The notes beneath the pieces are model-generated. The model did no database searches. It had not been told where the DNA came from and worked only from the letters and a program-made list of their open reading frames with translations. A program made the position numbers and the translations under genes. Shown piece after piece: positions 16,331-29,758 of a DNA stretch of 37,471 bases; the first letter of the stretch is position 1; each line of letters starts with the position of its first letter. The stretch is taken from IMG/VR virus record IMGVR_UViG_2531839523_000005; one strand, 5' to 3'. The stretch is from a virus. Taxonomy: Duplodnaviria > Heunggongvirae > Uroviricota > Caudoviricetes.

Positions 16331-16669
16331 TCACACCCCGCGCAGGATACGAATGACGTCGCCTTCACCCCCGGCTTCATCAAGTGCAATACCACAGGAT
16401 TTACCGTCGCCGGACTGCGGCACGGCTCTGGCCTGAGCATCTGACTGAACAGCCACACCACGGCTGACAGCGGCCCCGGCCTCGACAGCAATAATGCCCA
16501 GAACGCTCACCGGCGTGCTGTCGCCGGTAACAGCATCCACTTCGGCAACCCCGAGCGCTGCGGCACCGGCTTTACAGGGGGTATTATCTGCCCCGACAAA
16601 ACGCTGCTGTGCCAGTGCTGCCCCTGCCGTTACGGTTGTGATCAGAATGACCTGCTGAGTGGTTCCCAT
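16331..16669 (-). CDS. Hypothetical head-associated protein (Mu gp35 position)
   Basis: 112 aa, Ala/Gly/Val-rich. Confidence 0.5.
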   Translation of the reverse strand: MGTTQQVILITTVTAGAALAQQRFVGADNTPCKAGAAALGVAEVDAVTGDSTPVSVLGIIAVEAGAAVSRGVAVQSDAQARAVPQSGDGKSCGIALDEAGGEGDVIRILRGV

Positions 16670-25259: not shown

Positions 25260-25881
25260 TCACCGTGGCGACATGTCCGAACCAGCGGGTGCTGTCCAGA
25301 CCTTTCTGTGATGCAAGCCGCCTGTCCCGTTGTACCCAGCCCAGACCACCGTTATAGCCCGACAGTGTCATGGCCATACGCTCGCAGTCACTGGCGGCGC
25401 TGACACGCTGCCACAGCCAGCGGTCATAGCTGACCAGCGCCCGGATAGCCCATGCCGGATTAAACGGCTCACGACTGCTCAGCATCGGTATCAACTGGCT
25501 TATCCAGTCGGCAGTGGCAGGCATGAACTGCGCCAGTCCCTGAGCGCCAGCCGGCGAGATCGCATCAGGTCGCCAGCCGCTTTCCTGATGCAGTTGCGCG
25601 GCGAAATCGGCCACCGGCGCAGACAGTCCCCATTCAAGCCGGGCATTACGGATCACATCATCGCGATACTGCAGCGCAGCCTGCGGAGGTTGTGCTGCGC
25701 ATGCCTGGCTGAAAAAGCCGCCACACCAGAGCAACATTGCGACAAAGAATACCCATGCCATATGAACCAGAAAGGTCCCGGCGCGGACTGACAGGCGTTC
25801 GGTTCTGATGAAGACCCGAAAGGCTTCGAAAGCCAGTTTCAGGGACATGCATACAATCCAGGTGATCTGCGGCCAGTTCAT
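25141..25881 (-). CDS. Endolysin, lytic transglycosylase (SLT domain), possible signal-anchor type
   Basis: GLAQFMPATA SLT motif; hydrophobic segment MAWVFFVAMLLWCGGFF; start abuts holin stop. Confidence 0.8.
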   Translation of the reverse strand: MNWPQITWIVCMSLKLAFEAFRVFIRTERLSVRAGTFLVHMAWVFFVAMLLWCGGFFSQACAAQPPQAALQYRDDVIRNARLEWGLSAPVADFAAQLHQESGWRPDAISPAGAQGLAQFMPATADWISQLIPMLSSREPFNPAWAIRALVSYDRWLWQRVSAASDCERMAMTLSGYNGGLGWVQRDRRLASQKGLDSTRWFGHVATVNAGRNAASWRENRHYPQRILHELAPRYLTWGGSSCVASG

Positions 25882-25883
25882 GA

Positions 25884-26234
25884 TTAAAGCCCCATCGCAA
25901 CAGCCAGGCAGACCGCTGCAACAATCAGTGCACGGCGGATTAACGCAGCAGAAAACACCAGGTGAAGGCCGGTCTGTACCGGGAAACGCCCTTCAGCCAT
26001 CAGCCTGTCGTCATGTTTCAGGTACTGACCGGGACGGGCTTTGGGGAAGAGCGAACGGTCAAGCCAGTAACCCAGCACTGCTGCCAGCGTGATGAGTGCC
26101 AGCTTGTAGATCACAACAGGCAGCTGCTGTGGTGAGACCAGAGCGATGGTGCCCAGCAACAGCACTGAGGTCAGCAGCCAGCCGCTGAGGCGAGGTTTTT
26201 TAACAGGGGGAATGAATTTTTTCAGGTTTTTCAT
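25884..26234 (-). CDS. Putative holin, first gene of the lysis/late operon
   Basis: Start MKNLKKF at 26234 with AAGGAGA RBS; three predicted TM helices. Confidence 0.55.
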   Translation of the reverse strand: MKNLKKFIPPVKKPRLSGWLLTSVLLLGTIALVSPQQLPVVIYKLALITLAAVLGYWLDRSLFPKARPGQYLKHDDRLMAEGRFPVQTGLHLVFSAALIRRALIVAAVCLAVAMGL

Positions 26235-26364
26235 GTGTGTCTCCTTATCTGGTGGAGACAGCATCACAAATACAGGGCGCGAAGGATTTTAAAGCGCGTT
26301 AAGAGAGCCGGGGATACGGGATGTGCAGGATAAACGATGAATTATTCACAGAGGAGAATACGAT

Positions 26365-27093
26365 ATGACGCAGACACTGAATCCGGTCATCACTGTCACC
26401 GTGTCCGGTCCTGTGGGCAGCGGTAAAAGTTACGTACTGGCGCGAATAGAGGAAGTGGTGAAACAGGAATTCGGAAACAGCGTCATTGTCGACGCCGCAG
26501 ACGTGGACGGTGAGCGCCGTATGAGTGGGGATGATCTGAGCACATGGCAGAAACCACGGGCTGGCACAGTGATCAGGCTGGAGGAATACACGGGACAGGG
26601 CCTGTTGTCATACGGCGAGGAGCGTATCTGTCGGACGAATGAGCTGCTGGATGTTATATGCCCCACGGGCCGGCAACCCTGGATACTGCCCGATGCACTG
26701 CATGCCACCATTGCGGCACTGATGACAGTTTACGATCAGGAGCTGCTCATGAAGGAGTTACGTAAACTCACTGGTCAGTCAACAGAATGTTGTTCGTCCC
26801 CGAAGTACGGCAAACAGGAACACATCCCGATTAACCAGCCTCCCCGGTTCTTCGACGAATACCTTCTGACACCGGAAAATAAAGCTGAGCATGAAGAGAT
26901 CAAAGCGGCGTTGTTCCGGGAAATCAGGAAGATTGCTGAAATGCAACTGGAGGGCGGGCTGGACAGAGTGATGGCGAGAGGAGAATGGGCATCGCTGTTT
27001 GAAAGAGTTTCCCCGGAATTACTTCCCCTCGCACTGGCTATCGGGATTATGCAGACAGCGGATAAACCTCACTTACGTTCATTAAACACGTAA
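26365..27093 (+). CDS. P-loop NTPase-like protein of unknown function
   Basis: Walker A VSGPVGSGKSYV near N-terminus; GAGGAG RBS; opposite strand to late operon. Confidence 0.6.
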   Translation: MTQTLNPVITVTVSGPVGSGKSYVLARIEEVVKQEFGNSVIVDAADVDGERRMSGDDLSTWQKPRAGTVIRLEEYTGQGLLSYGEERICRTNELLDVICPTGRQPWILPDALHATIAALMTVYDQELLMKELRKLTGQSTECCSSPKYGKQEHIPINQPPRFFDEYLLTPENKAEHEEIKAALFREIRKIAEMQLEGGLDRVMARGEWASLFERVSPELLPLALAIGIMQTADKPHLRSLNT

Positions 27094-27473
27094 CGCATAA
27101 TCCGGGATACGCATTCAGCGATGACTGCATTTTCACCGGTTTTTACTGCATCCAGAAGTGACTCTTTAAATGGTACGGGCCGGGGCTGCAGAAAGGTCGG
27201 CATGGCATTGAGCAGACAGAGCGTTTTTTCCGTGAGGACGACATCAGCCGCTCCCACAGCCAGCAACTGAGAGTAACGAATATAGCTGTTATCCCGAAGC
27301 CATATCAGCGTATCAATAAAACACCGGCACTTTTTCTGGTCGTGATCAACCTGGTCCGGGATATCGAAAAAACCAGAATAAATCAAAACCTGAGGTGCCG
27401 GATGCGTGTTCAGTAATCGGCAGAATATTTTGCCGGTGAGTACATAAAAATCATCATTTAAGGAGTGCATCAT
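27069..27473 (-). CDS. Hypothetical protein, head-to-head with 27472-27687
   Basis: 134 aa; 3' end overlaps P-loop gene by 25 nt. Confidence 0.4.
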   Translation of the reverse strand: MMHSLNDDFYVLTGKIFCRLLNTHPAPQVLIYSGFFDIPDQVDHDQKKCRCFIDTLIWLRDNSYIRYSQLLAVGAADVVLTEKTLCLLNAMPTFLQPRPVPFKESLLDAVKTGENAVIAECVSRIMRYVFNERK

Positions 27474-27687
27474 GAATCCCCGATTAACGTTAACAGAACA
27501 TCAGCGCCGTGCTGAAGCAGTGAACAATGTTCTGGAAGATATTATCCGGTTATACCGCGGAGAACTGAGTGTCTGTCGTGCCGCTTTTCATTTTCAGGGA
27601 ATACAAAAGCAGTTTGATACTTCTGTTTTTGCAGAAGGTATTACTTATGCCCTGGACCGGATAAGGTCAGAAAATCGCCCCGGATAA
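27472..27687 (+). CDS. Hypothetical small protein
   Basis: 71 aa; strong AAGGAG RBS 6 nt upstream of ATG. Confidence 0.4.
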   Translation: MNPRLTLTEHQRRAEAVNNVLEDIIRLYRGELSVCRAAFHFQGIQKQFDTSVFAEGITYALDRIRSENRPG

Positions 27688-27742
27688 TCCCTAAACCACA
27701 TTAACAGAAATCCCGCCATCCCTGCCGCATCATGAAAGAACG

Positions 27743-27772
27743 ACCAGCCCGGCACCCGAAAGCCGGGCTGGT
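27743..27772. terminator. GC-rich stem-loop between the small ORF and the methyltransferase gene
   Basis: ACCAGCCCGGC-acccgaaa-GCCGGGCTGGT, perfect 11-bp stem; no clear T-tract on plus strand. Confidence 0.35.
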
Positions 27773-27877
27773 CATCGCCCCACAGGAATGCGCTGTGAGC
27801 CGACCAAGGTTCAGTCAGTCTCGCGAGACCTGACCAGACTGCCATATTTTTTAATAATTGTAAAAGGCTTACAGATT

Positions 27878-28642
27878 ATGAAAATGCAGACATTACCCAT
27901 CGTGCCGTGGATTGGTGGCAAACGCCGCCTTGCAAAACACATTCTGCCGCTGTTTCCGGCGCATGAATGTTATGTGGAGCCGTTTTGTGGGGCAGCAGCG
28001 CTCTATTTTCTTAAGACACCCGGCAAGATCGAAGTCATCAATGATATCAACGGTGAACTGGTGAATCTGTACCGGGTGGTAAAGCATCACCTGGAAGAAT
28101 TTGTCCGCCAGTTCAAATGGGCGCTGGTCAGCCGTCAGATCTACAAATGGCTGCAGATCACCCCGGAAGAAACACTGACGGATATCCAGCGTGCGGCACG
28201 GTTCTACTACCTTCAGAAGCAGGCGTTTGGCGGCAAGGTGGCAGAGCACAGCTTCGGTACCTCCACCACATCCCCGCCACGCTTCAACCTGCTACGTATT
28301 GAAGAAGAACTGTCAGCGGCACACCTGCGGCTTTCCAGAACAGTCATAGAACACATGGACTGGCAACAGTGCATTGAGCGTTATGATCGTCCGCACACGC
28401 TGTTCTACTGCGACCCACCGTACCTGGGTACGGAAGGCTATGGTGTGGATTTTCCTGAAGGGAACTACTCGCGGCTGGCAGAGCTGGCCCGGTGCATCAG
28501 AGGAAAAATGATAATTTCGGTGAACGACATCCCGCAGATGCGCGAGGTGTTCACTGGACTGAACATACAGACAGTGAATATCAACTACAGTCTGGCGGGT
28601 AAACCCACGCCGCGCCGTGAACTGCTAATCTGCAACTTCTGA
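27878..28642 (+). CDS. Dam-family N6-adenine DNA methyltransferase (orphan)
   Basis: VPWIGGKRRL, VEPFCGAAALYF, DINGELVNLYRVVK and YCDPPY motifs; start taken at MKMQTLP (27878), the track ORF begins at 27788. Confidence 0.9.
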   Translation: MKMQTLPIVPWIGGKRRLAKHILPLFPAHECYVEPFCGAAALYFLKTPGKIEVINDINGELVNLYRVVKHHLEEFVRQFKWALVSRQIYKWLQITPEETLTDIQRAARFYYLQKQAFGGKVAEHSFGTSTTSPPRFNLLRIEEELSAAHLRLSRTVIEHMDWQQCIERYDRPHTLFYCDPPYLGTEGYGVDFPEGNYSRLAELARCIRGKMIISVNDIPQMREVFTGLNIQTVNINYSLAGKPTPRRELLICNF

Positions 28643-28649
28643 AACAAAA

Positions 28650-28672
28650 CCGGAAAGCACAATGCTTTCCGG
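28650..28672 (-). terminator. Intrinsic terminator downstream of the repressor gene
   Basis: CCGGAAAGCA-caa-TGCTTTCCGG, 10-bp stem; on the minus strand followed by UUUUGUUUC. Confidence 0.5.
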
Positions 28673-28758
28673 TAAACCAAACAACTTCCACTATGTCACT
28701 GGCGATGTTTTCTGAAAGCATCCAGATCAACCACCTGTCCTTTGTGTCCGGGTCAGTA

Positions 28759-29115
28759 TCAGCCTGCGATTTTTCCTGGTTTTGGCTGAGTATAGAATCG
28801 CCCAATCTCAAGAAATGAGCGTTGTTGGTCTGGTGTCATGTCGTCAAAAGTATCTATTAGTTTTTGTTTTTCTGGGGAAATTTGATTCTGGTTTCTAGTC
28901 ATACCATCTGTGCTCATTCCAGTGAGCAACCAATTTACATCAACATTAAACTCTTGATGCATCTTTAACAGAAACTCCCCTCCAGGCATCGCCTTTCCAT
29001 TTTCAATCTGACTGATACCACCATTAGAAATACCTAAACGAGCTGCAAATTCTCTCTGGTTCAACCCTGCTTTCTTCCTCACAGAAATAACGCGCTCTCC
29101 TATATCTTTGCTCAT
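28759..29115 (-). CDS. XRE-family HTH transcriptional repressor (phage repressor candidate)
   Basis: N-terminal HTH LNQREFAARLGISNGGISQIENGK; divergent from early operon. Confidence 0.8.
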   Translation of the reverse strand: MSKDIGERVISVRKKAGLNQREFAARLGISNGGISQIENGKAMPGGEFLLKMHQEFNVDVNWLLTGMSTDGMTRNQNQISPEKQKLIDTFDDMTPDQQRSFLEIGRFYTQPKPGKIAG

Positions 29116-29161
29116 AAAAGTGAATCTCTATCTTGATATGCTCATAATTATGAGCAATAAT
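29107..29161 (+). promoter_or_regulatory. Early promoter/operator region
   Basis: -35 TTGATA (29133-29138), 17-bp spacer, -10 AATAAT (29156-29161); perfect 16-bp palindrome GCTCATAATTATGAGC (29140-29155) in the spacer; half-site CTCATAA also at 29111-29117. Confidence 0.45.
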
Positions 29162-29208
29162 CTAACACATATAAGGCAAACATCATTGCATCAACAAAGG
29201 AGACAACG

Positions 29209-29397
29209 ATGACTGCAGAACAAGTCAAAGCTCTCTTCCGCCAGCGCGGGATCACTTTCACCCGCTGGGCAGAAGAAAACGGCTACAACCGCAATGAGGT
29301 ATACCGCGTTCTCAACGGGCAGACCAAAGCCCGTTACGGTAAATCCCATGAAATCGCCGTGAAGTTGGGACTGAAATCAACAGCTCAGGCGGCCTAA
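29209..29397 (+). CDS. Ner/Cro-like small DNA-binding protein, first gene of early operon
   Basis: 62 aa; pattern resembles Mu Ner; AAAGGAG RBS. Confidence 0.55.
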   Translation: MTAEQVKALFRQRGITFTRWAEENGYNRNEVYRVLNGQTKARYGKSHEIAVKLGLKSTAQAA

Positions 29398-29449
29398 ATA
29401 TTTTGAGTCTTTGTAAAAGGTTATCACATATCGCAAAAGAGGTATGCAG

Positions 29450-29758
29450 ATGAGTAAGACGAATGTTTCAAGCTCCGGCAGTCGCATCCTCCGGGTACTC
29501 AAAGCGCTGCGCGGTCATGCCCTGAACGGTATTTCTAACGGTGAACTGGCGACAGCACTGCACGAGTCACCGGCAAACATCAACCGGGCACTCAACACCC
29601 TCATTGAAGAAGGGCTGGCTCTGAAACTGGAGAACGGACGTTTTGCACCGGGCATCCAGTTACTGCAGATCGCCATGGCCCACAGTAACGAGATGGCACG
29701 TGCACAGGATCGTATTAACGAAATTAACCAACGTGTCATTTCAGGTAGTCGTTTGTAA
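29450..29758 (+). CDS. Hypothetical winged-helix-like protein
   Basis: Start taken at second Met (better RBS spacing); …ISNGELATALHESPANINRALNTLIEEGL…. Confidence 0.45.
   Translation: MSKTNVSSSGSRILRVLKALRGHALNGISNGELATALHESPANINRALNTLIEEGLALKLENGRFAPGIQLLQIAMAHSNEMARAQDRINEINQRVISGSRL

What the first reader, a model, noticed from the sequence alone, without database searches (positions are those of the whole stretch)
26235..28758. Opposite-strand accessory module between the lysis operon and the repressor
Between the holin start (26234) and the repressor stop (28759) lie four genes with no counterpart in canonical Mu at this position: a P-loop protein, two small head-to-head ORFs and a Dam-family methyltransferase. 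Three are on the plus strand, against the late operon. The module is punctuated by GC-rich hairpins (27743-27772, 28650-28672). This is the best candidate in the window for an undescribed prophage-carried accessory system (defence, anti-defence or lysogeny control).
Basis: partly seen in the sequence, partly recalled or inferred. Interest (0 to 1): 0.7.

Follow-up and report, generated by a model that had tools for sequence, protein, structure and literature searches.

The report
Composite cargo slot in BcepMu-like prophage
The interval is the variable cargo region of a common E. coli ST131 prophage. It holds two separate units: a silent orphan DNA methylase with an undescribed structured RNA, and a three-gene cassette of unknown function whose core gene pair recurs in the accessory and defence hotspots of unrelated phages.

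Summary
The four ORFs and both hairpins are real. The phage is not Mu-organised. It is BcepMu-like, identical to phage PhiKM and to prophage Phi2 of E. coli ST131 EC958, and in this group the repressor and lysis cassette normally face each other mid-genome.

The interval is hypervariable: 45 gene arrangements in 70 related loci. It is not one four-gene system.

**Unit 1** is the orphan Dam-family methylase M.EcoMIV. Published data show it poorly transcribed in the lysogen and dispensable. It always travels with a roughly 120-nt structured RNA on the opposite strand. This RNA contains the 27743-27772 hairpin, is supported by covariation, and has no Rfam match.

**Unit 2** is a 1.4-kb insert of three ORFans. 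Its core is the p134 family plus a small partner. In 67 of 80 viral loci their two ATGs overlap head to head as CATG. The pair occurs in BcepMu-like, P2-like (the validated gpA-portal defence hotspot) and lambdoid phages. The "P-loop" protein is a mosaic: a 75-residue mini Walker-A domain fused to shuffled modules. Its last module is homologous to p134 partners elsewhere.

No known defence, toxin-antitoxin or regulator family matches. Function is inferred: a conflict-related accessory cassette with antisense-interlocked expression.

The parts
25884..26234 (-). Holin, first gene of the lysis/late operon. It forms the left boundary of the slot.
   Evidence: Pfam Holin_2-3, E = 1e-41. PHROG 1528, holin.
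26284..26302 (-). Conserved motif TTAACGC-N2-TTTAAAATCC just upstream of the holin gene. It is a putative late (Plys) promoter with a TAAAAT -10 element. The left edge of the 1.4-kb insert lies immediately beyond it, at about 26310.
   Evidence: The motif is retained both in loci with cargo and in loci where Dam abuts the holin gene. It occurs only once in the window. Its promoter function is inferred.
26365..27093 (+). Mosaic 'mini P-loop' protein, 242 aa. Residues 1-76 form a conserved N-domain with Walker A motif GPVGSGKS. Residues 77-170 and 171-242 are shuffled helical modules. The last one, called module X here, is coded at 26875-27090.
   Evidence: An exhaustive phmmer search shows that only the first roughly 75 residues are shared with proteins that have different C-termini. 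P-loop Pfam hits are all below threshold. In the AlphaFold2 model only the N-domain is confident. Module X is 46% identical to a standalone Serratia ORF. It also aligns with the head-to-head partners of p134 homologues in other phages.
27069..27473 (-). p134, a member of a roughly 140-aa helical protein family. This family is the constant component of the cassette. The 3' end of p134 overlaps the 3' end of the P-loop gene by 25 nt.
   Evidence: PHROG 2266. Homologues: 53% identity in Serratia, about 31% in P2-like phages, and 37-45% in a third group. The family alignment has 13 invariant columns.
27471..27474 (.). CATG, where the start codons of p134 (-) and p71 (+) overlap by 2 nt. Each gene's ribosome-binding site and promoter must therefore lie inside the other gene.
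   Evidence: The overlap is visible in the sequence. The same 2-nt overlap is found in 67 of 80 IMG/VR loci that carry a p134 homologue.
27472..27687 (+). p71, the small head-to-head partner of p134. It has a strong Shine-Dalgarno sequence (AAGGAG) 5 nt upstream of the ATG.
   Evidence: PHROG 4490. The Serratia counterpart is 31% identical. A profile match to module X is weak: hhalign E = 7e-4, probability 26%.
27729..27847 (-). Conserved structured RNA element on the strand opposite Dam. It has three hairpins and a closing helix, and ends in the 12-bp GC stem (27742-27773) followed by GUUCUUUC.
   Evidence: RNAalifold predicts 37 pairs, 11 of them with compensatory changes. 98.4% of cells are paired, and 0 of 500 shuffles reach the observed values. 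The minus strand folds better than the plus strand, -65 versus -51 kcal/mol. The single-sequence z-score is -4.3. A covariance model finds the element in every Dam locus tested. Rfam gives no match.
27878..28642 (+). Orphan Dam-family (D12 class) N6-adenine DNA methyltransferase, identical to M.EcoMIV of EC958 prophage Phi2.
   Evidence: Pfam PF02086, E = 6e-29, and TIGR00571 above its cut-off. The EC958 protein at the same position is identical. The literature is PMC4659465. dN/dS is 0.04-0.15.
28649..28673 (-). Intrinsic terminator of the repressor transcript: an 11-bp stem followed by UUUGUUUC on the minus strand.
   Evidence: Terminator scan and inverted repeat I5.
28759..29115 (-). HTH_3 (XRE-type) prophage repressor. 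It forms the right boundary of the slot.
   Evidence: Pfam HTH_3, E = 5e-15. It is essential in EC958 TraDIS, with 1 insertion.

Best explanation
The interval is the hypervariable accessory slot between the immunity gene and the lysis cassette of a BcepMu-like transposable prophage (Phi2 of E. coli ST131, identical to phage PhiKM). It holds two independent units.

**Unit 1: Dam cassette (27729-28673)**
- This is the orphan methyltransferase M.EcoMIV, preceded by a roughly 120-nt structured RNA on the opposite strand and followed by the repressor terminator.
- Shown: the methylase and the RNA travel together through different phage contexts. The methylase is barely transcribed and is dispensable in the lysogen.
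- Inferred: the methylase acts during lytic growth to methylate progeny DNA against restriction, a role like Mu's Mom.
- Inferred: the RNA either terminates minus-strand transcription heading for the holin gene or acts as an antisense regulator that keeps Dam off.

**Unit 2: 1.4-kb insert (about 26310-27725)**
- Shown: the insert carries p134 flanked by two opposite-strand genes, p71 and the mosaic mini-P-loop protein. These overlap p134's 5' and 3' ends.
- Shown: the constant core is a p134-family protein plus a small partner. The partner in the third phage group is homologous to module X, the last module of the mini-P-loop protein. p71 matches module X only weakly, and the P2-like partners show no detectable sequence similarity to it.
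- Shown: the two start codons overlap as CATG in unrelated phages.
- Inferred: because each promoter must lie inside the other gene, transcription of the two strands interferes. The cassette would then behave as a two-state switch.
- Inferred: it is a self-contained conflict module, most likely superinfection exclusion or anti-phage defence, less likely counter-defence. It is not part of core phage development.
For: **Identity and layout**
- The interval is 100% identical to PhiKM, classified as Bcepmuvirus.
- It is identical to EC958 Phi2, which sits next to ycaL.
- BcepMu has the same repressor-slot-holin layout with different genes in the slot.
- The slot is variable: 45 arrangements in 70 loci.

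**The units are independent**
- Dam is present in 52 of 70 loci, often directly beside the holin gene.
- P-loop-family genes occur without Dam, and p134 is internally deleted in L066 and L067.
- The insert boundaries were mapped against loci that lack the insert.

**Dam**
- In EC958 it is transcribed significantly below the host dam gene, and no methylation motif could be assigned to it (PMC4659465).
- It tolerated 78 transposon insertions and is scored non-essential. Methylases with a cognate restriction enzyme are scored essential in the same table (PMC3789825 Table S1).

**RNA element**
- Covariation and strand asymmetry support a minus-strand structure.
- Dam lies divergently 70-105 nt away in 77 of 80 motif hits. 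These include phages where the pair follows the tail-fibre genes.
- The element is present without Dam at operon ends in L078, L086 and L117.

**Cassette**
- The trio is conserved in Serratia.
- Homologous pairs sit in the gpA-portal hotspot of three P2-like phages, next to a reverse transcriptase, a Fic protein and DinI.
- That locus is an experimentally validated defence hotspot (PMC9122126).
- The CATG overlap occurs in 67 of 80 loci across at least three phage contexts.
- In P2-like phages both genes are under purifying selection, with dN/dS 0.05-0.10.
- Module X partners align with each other.
- In the third group, one lambdoid locus has the pair directly upstream of the lysis genes, and another locus has it between terminase and portal.
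Against: - No experiment shows any phenotype for the three unknown genes.
  - In EC958 TraDIS they are neutral in LB and in serum.
- No PADLOC model matches any member of the pair.
- Structure prediction failed. The p134 model has mean pLDDT 54, and only the N-domain of the P-loop protein is confident. No fold evidence is therefore available.
- The promoters required for the interference model were not found by the consensus scan.
- The link between p71 and module X is weak.
- The RNA has no mapped 5' end. Its putative -10 element is poorly conserved.
- In some loci the element could be explained as a terminator alone.
- Some p134-family genes occur without a partner: L042, L073, L089 and three IMG/VR loci.
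Confidence: 0.55

Rival explanations
1. The p134 / small-partner pair is a toxin-antitoxin or addiction module that stabilises the prophage. Any anti-phage effect would be secondary.
For: - The pair consists of two small, mobile, tightly coupled genes found in many mobile-element hotspots.
- The overlapping antisense geometry resembles RNA-controlled toxin loci.
- In the same TraDIS table the known antitoxin yeeU is also scored non-essential. Non-essentiality therefore does not exclude this reading.
Against: - The genes are divergent, not an operon.
- Both p134 (39 insertions) and p71 (27 insertions) tolerate transposon insertion at normal density.
- p134 is cleanly deleted in L066 and L067 while p71 is kept.
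- p134-family genes occur without a partner in L073 and L089.
- There is no match to any toxin or antitoxin family in Pfam, NCBIfam or PADLOC.
Confidence: 0.15
2. The three unknown genes are counter-defence genes expressed early or late in the lytic cycle, with modules that each inhibit a host defence. They are not lysogen-expressed defence genes.
For: - The P-loop family is a mosaic of small helical modules that also exist as standalone ORFs. This resembles polyvalent anti-defence proteins.
- The neighbouring Dam is silent in the lysogen.
- The P-loop gene is back to back with the late lysis promoter.
- The depositors of phage Midge note an HHpred similarity (91% probability) of the p134 homologue to T7 gp5.5/5.7.
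- dN/dS is higher than for backbone genes.
Against: - There is no homology to any characterised anti-defence protein.
- The proteins are not markedly acidic, with pI 5.2-8.0, so a DNA-mimic role has no support.
- The P2 gpA-portal hotspot has so far yielded defence systems.
- Expression timing is unknown.
Confidence: 0.2
3. All four genes form one methylation-based system, either restriction-modification-like or MADS-like. Dam would be the modification subunit, and the P-loop protein with the small ORFs would be the effector.
For: - The genes are physically adjacent.
- Dam matches PADLOC type II methyltransferase models and PD-Lambda-5_B.
- The P-loop protein has a faint hit to mad8, E = 0.003.
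Against: - Dam is distributed independently of the other three.
- Dam is non-essential in TraDIS, whereas methylases of active restriction-modification systems are essential in the same data set.
- No nuclease domain was found.
- The mad8 hit covers only the Walker A region and scores 15 bits.
- Dam is barely transcribed in the lysogen.
Confidence: 0.04
4. The genes are intrinsic regulators of phage development: an antirepressor, a lysis-timing regulator or a late-gene switch.
For: - The genes lie next to the holin gene in this phage, and the pair lies next to lysis genes in a lambdoid locus.
- p134 carries a motif (...GYI...VVLTEKTL..LN) that resembles winged-helix proteins. This is inference only.
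- The repressor lacks a peptidase domain, so induction may need an antirepressor.
Against: - The genes are absent from most close relatives, which still have the same backbone.
- The same alleles occur with three unrelated repressor types.
- There is no LexA box in the interval.
- The pair also occurs in the P2 gpA-portal hotspot and between terminase and portal.
- No helix-turn-helix family hit was found.
Confidence: 0.1

Closest known systems
Defence and accessory hotspots of temperate phages: the P2 old/tin locus between gpA and gpQ (Rousset et al. 2022, PMC9122126), lambdoid Q-S morons, and BcepMu gp18-gp20
   Same: - It is a fixed backbone position with rapidly exchanged small cassettes, often with their own regulation.
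- The p134 pair itself is found in the P2 hotspot.
- In one lambdoid locus the pair lies directly upstream of the lysis genes.
   Different: - None of the cassettes here matches a validated system.
- The hotspot in BcepMu-like enterobacterial prophages has not been described, as far as the searched literature shows.
Face-to-face promoter switches of P2 (Pe/Pc) and coliphage 186 (pR/pL). This comparison rests on established knowledge.
   Same: Both are divergent gene pairs whose transcripts must overlap at their 5' ends. This predicts transcriptional interference and two exclusive expression states.
   Different: - In P2 and 186 the genes are separated by an intergenic control region and encode known repressors.
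- Here the two ATGs overlap (CATG), so there is no intergenic DNA at all.
- No DNA-binding domain could be demonstrated.
Phage orphan Dam methyltransferases (T4 Dam, P1 Dmt) and the Mu mom modification function. This comparison rests on established knowledge.
   Same: - The enzyme is a D12-class adenine methyltransferase with a DPPY motif.
- It has no partner nuclease and is silent in the lysogen.
- In some phages the cassette sits after the tail-fibre genes, which is where Mu carries mom.
   Different: - It is not an orthologue of E. coli Dam: NF008152 scores 67 bits against a cut-off of 441.
- Its specificity is unknown, and no motif could be assigned in EC958.
- It is not related to Mom.
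- It is linked to a structured antisense-strand RNA instead of Com/OxyR control.
Cis-antisense control RNAs of mobile elements (IS10 RNA-OUT, P22 sar, lambda OOP) and insulating terminators. This comparison rests on established knowledge.
   Same: The element is a stable, structured, terminator-ended RNA encoded opposite the 5' region of a mobile-element gene. The structure is conserved on one strand only.
   Different: - Neither the transcript nor its promoter has been demonstrated.
- It has a three-helix architecture with invariant loop and junction residues.
- It has no Rfam family.

Membership tests
Dam family / D12-class N6-adenine DNA methyltransferase | Match to the family profile above the curated threshold | tested here: met
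   PF02086 scores 102 bits against a cut-off of 22. TIGR00571 scores 116.6 against 114.85.
Dam family / D12-class N6-adenine DNA methyltransferase | Catalytic DPPY motif and an N-terminal SAM-binding FxGxG-like motif | tested here: met
   The translation contains YCDPPYLG and EPFCGAAALYF. The alignment to DpnM spans both motifs.
Dam family / D12-class N6-adenine DNA methyltransferase | GATC specificity, i.e. orthology with host Dam | tested here: not met
   The equivalog model NF008152 scores 67 bits against a cut-off of 441. No motif could be assigned in EC958. The real specificity cannot be tested with these tools.
Orphan (solitary) methyltransferase | No cognate restriction enzyme, so loss of the methylase is tolerated | tested here: met
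   No nuclease domain was found in the neighbouring genes. EC958_1101 has 78 insertions and is non-essential, whereas M1/M2.EcoMI are essential in the same table.
P-loop NTPase | Walker A motif GxxxxGK[ST] | tested here: met
   GPVGSGKS occupies residues 15-22. G20 and K21 are invariant in 27 sequences.
P-loop NTPase | Complete NTPase core (Walker B, full alpha/beta domain) matching a family profile | tested here: not met
   - All Pfam, NCBIfam and PADLOC hits are below threshold and cover only about 40 residues.
- The conserved domain is only 75 residues long.
- Several members have GKN instead of GK[ST].
- No fold match was found.
Known anti-phage defence systems (PADLOC-DB v2.0.0) | Profile match of the component proteins | tested here: not met
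   - p134, p71 and their P2-like and Serratia homologues give no hits even at E <= 10.
- The P-loop protein has only marginal hits driven by the Walker A motif.
Rst_3HP (three hypothetical proteins from the P2 hotspot that protect against P1; Rousset 2022) | Sequence homology to its three proteins | not testable with these tools
   - The paper describes the system.
- The terms '3HP', '3 HP' and 'three HP' and the three WP accession numbers were not found in its supplements.
- I could not tell whether PADLOC-DB holds a model for this system, so the absence of PADLOC hits is not evidence against membership.
Type II toxin-antitoxin module | Co-directional bicistronic operon, with the antitoxin required for viability | tested here: not met
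   - The genes are divergent with overlapping starts.
- Both tolerate insertions.
- p134 is deleted in L066 and L067.
- Caveat: the known antitoxin yeeU is also scored non-essential.
DUF2513 (the name UniRef gives to the Serratia homologue P0031) | Match to the Pfam profile | tested here: not met
   No Pfam hit for any of 7 family members at E <= 10, nor for 3 members of the second subfamily.
Any Rfam RNA family (for the element at 27729-27847) | Covariance-model match | tested here: not met
   cmscan of 25800-29500 on both strands found no match at E <= 1.
Rho-independent terminator (hairpin 28649-28673) | GC-rich stem followed by a T-run on the transcribed strand, placed after a gene | tested here: met
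   On the minus strand there are 11 pairs followed by TTTGTTTC, 86 nt after the repressor stop codon.

The most novel reading that the evidence does not exclude
Two undescribed elements share this slot.

1. **A two-gene phage cassette.** It consists of a p134-family protein plus a small partner of 63-91 aa. Its hallmark is a pair of start codons overlapping as CATG. It would work as an antisense- or interference-driven toggle that controls a new anti-phage or anti-defence activity, and it has spread through the hotspots of P2-like, BcepMu-like and lambdoid phages.
2. **A new structured RNA family.** It is roughly 120 nt long and is encoded opposite the 5' region of phage Dam genes. It would silence or insulate the methylase in lysogens.
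Probability: 0.3. Interest if true: 0.7.

Novelty: new variant of a known kind. Interest (0 to 1): 0.55.

Why it matters
- **Prevalence.** The full interval is present at 80% coverage or more in 494 of 5,426 complete E. coli genomes, mostly pandemic ST131. Any function of its cargo therefore bears on a clinically dominant lineage.
- **A new hotspot.** The analysis defines a cargo hotspot in BcepMu-like enterobacterial prophages. It links that hotspot to the validated P2 hotspot through a shared cassette.
- **A tractable regulatory puzzle.** The CATG head-to-head geometry is conserved in 67 of 80 loci. It raises a simple question: how are two genes expressed when they have no intergenic DNA?
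- **A candidate RNA family.** The Dam-linked RNA has covariation support and no Rfam entry. It may explain why prophage methylases such as M.EcoMIV are silent in lysogens.

Tried and rejected
- **Profile searches.** Pfam, NCBIfam, PHROGs and PADLOC on all proteins gave only 'unknown function' PHROG families and sub-threshold P-loop hits.
- **Protein homology searches.** The word-indexed search found only close relatives in E. coli and Serratia. Exhaustive phmmer showed that only the N-domain of the P-loop protein is conserved more widely.
- **Structure prediction.** The p134 model has mean pLDDT 54, so it was not used for fold search. In the P-loop model only residues 10-70 are confident.
- **Fold searches.**
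  - Foldseek against PDB found nothing significant.
  - Foldseek against BFVD found nothing significant.
  - The afdb50 library was unavailable.
- **PDB sequence and profile searches.** These returned nothing useful: a designed P-loop protein and guanylate kinase at E > 0.1, and RdgC at E = 1.3.
- **M.EcoGII identity for Dam.** Rejected, because M.EcoGII is a beta-class enzyme.
- **LexA control.** Rejected. The interval has no LexA box, and the one match in the window, at 16518, is at chance level.
- **DNA-mimic idea.** Not supported, because the pI values are ordinary.
- **A shared late-promoter motif upstream of Dam or the P-loop gene.** The Plys motif occurs only once in the window.
- **Genome scan for the N-domain.** Across 185,579 species representatives it found only one real extra locus, in Salmonella diarizonae.
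- **Literature searches.** Searches for the WP accession numbers and for DUF2513 found nothing.
- **Rousset 2022 supplements.** None of the search terms, including the three WP accession numbers, was found there.


Full report
**1. Observation**

The ORF list and the sequence show four ORFs between the holin ATG (26234) and the repressor stop codon (28759):
- a 242-aa protein with GPVGSGKS, at 26365-27093 (+);
- p134, at 27069-27473 (-);
- p71, at 27472-27687 (+);
- a Dam-family methyltransferase, whose likely start is 27878 and whose stop is at 28642 (+).

NCBI's PGAP pipeline annotates the same four genes in an identical E. coli chromosome. The start codons of p134 and p71 overlap within CATG at 27471-27474. 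Both reported hairpins are perfect inverted repeats, at 27742-27773 and 28649-28673.

**2. What phage this is**

The interval is 100% identical to Escherichia phage PhiKM, classified as Bcepmuvirus. It is also identical to prophage Phi2 of ST131 strain EC958, which is inserted next to ycaL. It matches 626 of 5,426 complete E. coli genomes, 494 of them at 80% coverage or more.

In BcepMu the repressor (gp17) and the holin (gp21) are also neighbours mid-genome, with gp18-gp20 between them. 'No counterpart in Mu at this position' therefore reflects the wrong reference genome.

**3. The slot is hypervariable and the four genes are not one unit**

I fetched 80 IMG/VR loci through the holin protein.
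- Seventy of them span the region from the holin gene to the IclR-like gene. Slot length in these runs from 2,352 to 4,806 bp.
- They show 45 different ORF arrangements and 59 ORF clusters. The ORF calls are mechanical.
- Dam is present in 52 of the 70, often only about 250 bp from the holin gene.
- The P-loop gene, p134 and p71 occur in a minority.
- Six loci have a P-loop-family gene but no Dam.
- L066 and L067 carry an internal 318-nt deletion of p134 but keep p71 and the P-loop gene.
- The same alleles of the three unknown genes sit next to three unrelated repressor types.

Other cargo at this position includes lipoproteins, membrane proteins, an NA37 nucleoid-associated protein paired with a 393-aa ORF that has no family match, a DUF2441 protein, and a protein with a weak match to a 2TM effector model.

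**4. Insert boundaries**

I aligned the window with loci where Dam abuts the holin gene.
- The roughly 75 nt next to the holin gene are backbone. They include TTAACGC-N2-TTTAAAATCC, a likely late promoter.
- The roughly 145 nt upstream of Dam are also backbone.
- The P-loop gene, p134 and p71 form a 1.4-kb insertion between about 26310 and 27725.

**5. Dam cassette**

The methylase is a bona fide D12-class enzyme under strong purifying selection, with dN/dS 0.04-0.15. It is not an orthologue of host Dam.

It is M.EcoMIV, locus EC958_1101. Forde et al. 2015 (PMC4659465) found it transcribed significantly below the host dam gene in mid-log LB culture and could assign it no methylation motif. In the EC958 TraDIS data (Phan et al. 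2013, PMC3789825, Table S1) it has 78 insertions and is non-essential. Methylases of active restriction-modification systems are essential in the same table, and so is the Phi2 repressor EC958_1102, with 1 insertion. M.EcoMIV is therefore a true orphan that is silent in the lysogen. A lytic-phase anti-restriction role, analogous to Mu's Mom, is my inference.

**6. A conserved structured RNA**

The hairpin at 27742-27773 is part of a conserved block upstream of Dam.

*Evidence for structure on the minus strand*
- On a 36-sequence alignment, RNAalifold predicts 37 pairs on the minus strand, 11 of them with compensatory changes.
- 98.4% of cells are paired, against 28-51% when the 3' partners are slid by 1-3 columns. 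None of 500 shuffles reaches any of the five measures.
- Many pairs are G-U on the minus strand, which would be C-A mismatches on the Dam strand. In the terminal hairpin I counted about 33 such cells against about 5 of the reverse kind (my hand count from the pair table).
- The consensus energy is -65 kcal/mol for the minus strand and -51 for the plus strand.
- The single sequence folds with a z-score of -4.3.
- The element ends in the 12-bp GC stem followed by GUUCUUUC.
- Rfam has no match.

*Distribution*
- A covariance model finds the element in every Dam locus tested.
- It occurs twice in L042, where the two copies flank an inserted gene.
- It occurs without Dam, directly after the last gene of a same-strand operon, in L078, L086/L088 and L117.
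- A core-motif scan of IMG/VR found 87 stretches. In 77 of the 80 loci examined, Dam lies divergently 70-105 nt away. These include high-GC phages where the pair follows the tail-fibre genes.

*Readings*
- The element may be a complex terminator or insulator that blocks minus-strand transcription heading for the holin gene.
- It may be an antisense regulator of Dam.
- No 5' end is known, and the candidate promoter is poorly conserved.

The second hairpin, 28649-28673, is an ordinary minus-strand terminator of the repressor gene.

**7. The three unknown genes**

Profile libraries give only PHROG families of unknown function.

*The 'P-loop' protein*
- Exhaustive phmmer shows that only residues 1-75 are conserved, at 35-57% identity, in proteins of 177-364 aa that have unrelated, shuffled C-terminal modules.
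- The Walker A motif is nearly invariant, but some members have GKN.
- Every NTPase profile hit is sub-threshold and covers about 40 residues.
- This is not a demonstrable NTPase.
- The gene is positionally conserved as the first gene diverging from the holin gene in E. coli, in Salmonella diarizonae and in a further enterobacterial prophage.

*The trio in Serratia*
- Serratia prophages keep the arrangement in a reduced form.
- An 89-aa ORF is 46% identical to residues 177-228 of the P-loop protein (module X). It lies convergent with, and overlapping, a p139 gene that is 53% identical to p134.
- That gene is in turn head to head with a p73 gene, 31% identical to p71.

**8. The core pair is widespread**

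*P2-like phages*
- tblastn finds p134 homologues at about 31% identity in the P2-like phages Midge, FSL SP-004 and Klebsiella ST147-VIM1phi7.1.
- In each, the 143-aa gene is head to head with a 63-64-aa ORF, and the starts overlap.
- In each, the pair lies in the cos-proximal gpA-portal interval, next to a reverse transcriptase with an XRE regulator, a Fic protein, or DinI.
- Rousset et al. 2022 (PMC9122126) showed this locus to be a defence hotspot, with 1,650 arrangements and several validated systems.

*IMG/VR survey*
- Eighty loci were fetched with the family alignment.
- In 67 of them a divergent ORF of 63-91 aa has its ATG overlapping the p134-family ATG by exactly 2 nt (CATG). Four more have a 4-nt gap.
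- The contexts are BcepMu-like, P2-like, and a third group. In the third group one lambdoid locus has the pair directly upstream of the lysis genes, and another locus has it between terminase and portal.
- Within the P2-like group both genes are under purifying selection, with dN/dS 0.05-0.10.

*Partner identity*
- In the third group the head-to-head partner is itself homologous to module X.
- p71 matches module X only weakly: hhalign E = 7e-4, probability 26%.
- The constant theme is therefore a p134-family protein plus a small partner. In the window p134 is flanked by two candidates, p71 and module X fused to the mini-P-loop mosaic.

**9. Mechanism**

*Shown:*
- There is no intergenic DNA between p134 and its partner.
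- The 3' end of p134 overlaps the opposite-strand mosaic gene by 25 nt.

*Inferred:*
- Promoters and ribosome-binding sites lie inside the partner genes. Transcripts are then complementary at both ends of p134.
- Transcription of the two strands should interfere, giving two exclusive states.
- The biochemical activity is unknown.
- The hotspot contexts, independent gain and loss, faster evolution than the backbone and dispensability in the lysogen favour a conflict-related accessory function.
- Defence or superinfection exclusion is most likely. Counter-defence and toxin-antitoxin roles are the alternatives. The TraDIS data weaken the toxin-antitoxin reading but do not exclude it, because the known antitoxin yeeU is also non-essential in that table.

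**10. Comparison and novelty**

The slot is a known kind of thing: a phage accessory hotspot holding an orphan methylase. The specific contents appear undescribed:
- no PADLOC model matches;
- the PHROG families have no assigned function;
- no Rfam family matches;
- no literature hit was found for the accession numbers.

I could not compare the cassette with Rst_3HP. That is the three-hypothetical-protein system from the P2 hotspot that protects against P1, and no sequences for it were available here.

**Verdict**

Interest is moderate to good. It rests on two findings: the conserved CATG head-to-head cassette and the Dam-linked structured RNA.

Noticed in passing
window 27729-27847 (-): A structured RNA element of about 120 nt lies on the strand opposite Dam. 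It has three hairpins, a closing helix and a U-rich tail. Covariation supports it strongly, and it has no Rfam match. It is linked to phage Dam genes in several phage types and is duplicated in L042 around an inserted gene.
   Followed up: yes
window 26238-26260 (-): The inverted repeat TGTCTCC-N9-GGAGACA lies immediately upstream of the holin ATG. On the mRNA the 3' arm contains the Shine-Dalgarno GGAG, so the hairpin could sequester the holin ribosome-binding site. It is conserved in related loci.
   Followed up: partly
window 28759-29115 (-): The prophage repressor (EC958_1102) is one of the essential genes unique to EC958 in published TraDIS data, with 1 insertion. This implies that Phi2 is an active prophage that is lethal when derepressed.
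   Followed up: yes
whole window: GATC is under-represented, with 95 observed against 179 expected from a second-order model. CTAG is almost absent, with 1 observed against 9.8 expected. The GATC result agrees with the under-representation reported for EC958 mobile elements.
   Followed up: partly
window 27467-27476 and 27727-27736; 27475-27498 and 27686-27709: Short direct repeats bracket the p71 gene: GCATCATGAA (10 of 10 identical) and AATCCC...ATTAACAGAA (75% identical). They may be scars of the recombination that built the insert, or they may be chance matches.
   Followed up: no
related loci L026/L034/L049 (3778-5993), L036 (6059-6929), L031/L040, L078 (5144-5821): Other cargo found in the same slot includes an NA37 nucleoid-associated protein next to a 393-aa ORF with no family match, a DUF2441 protein convergent with a small ORF, a protein with a weak 2TM-effector match, and several lipoproteins. 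None is a recognised defence system.
   Followed up: partly
window 28693-28818 (+): PhiKM annotates a 126-nt 'hypothetical protein' between Dam and the repressor. This corresponds to a 41-aa ORF that overlaps the repressor 3' end and the terminator region. It is probably spurious.
   Followed up: no
L187 (Klebsiella phage ST147-VIM1phi7.1) 4556-5792: A reverse transcriptase and an XRE regulator sit directly beside the p134-type pair in the P2-like hotspot. This may be a retron- or Abi-type system.
   Followed up: no
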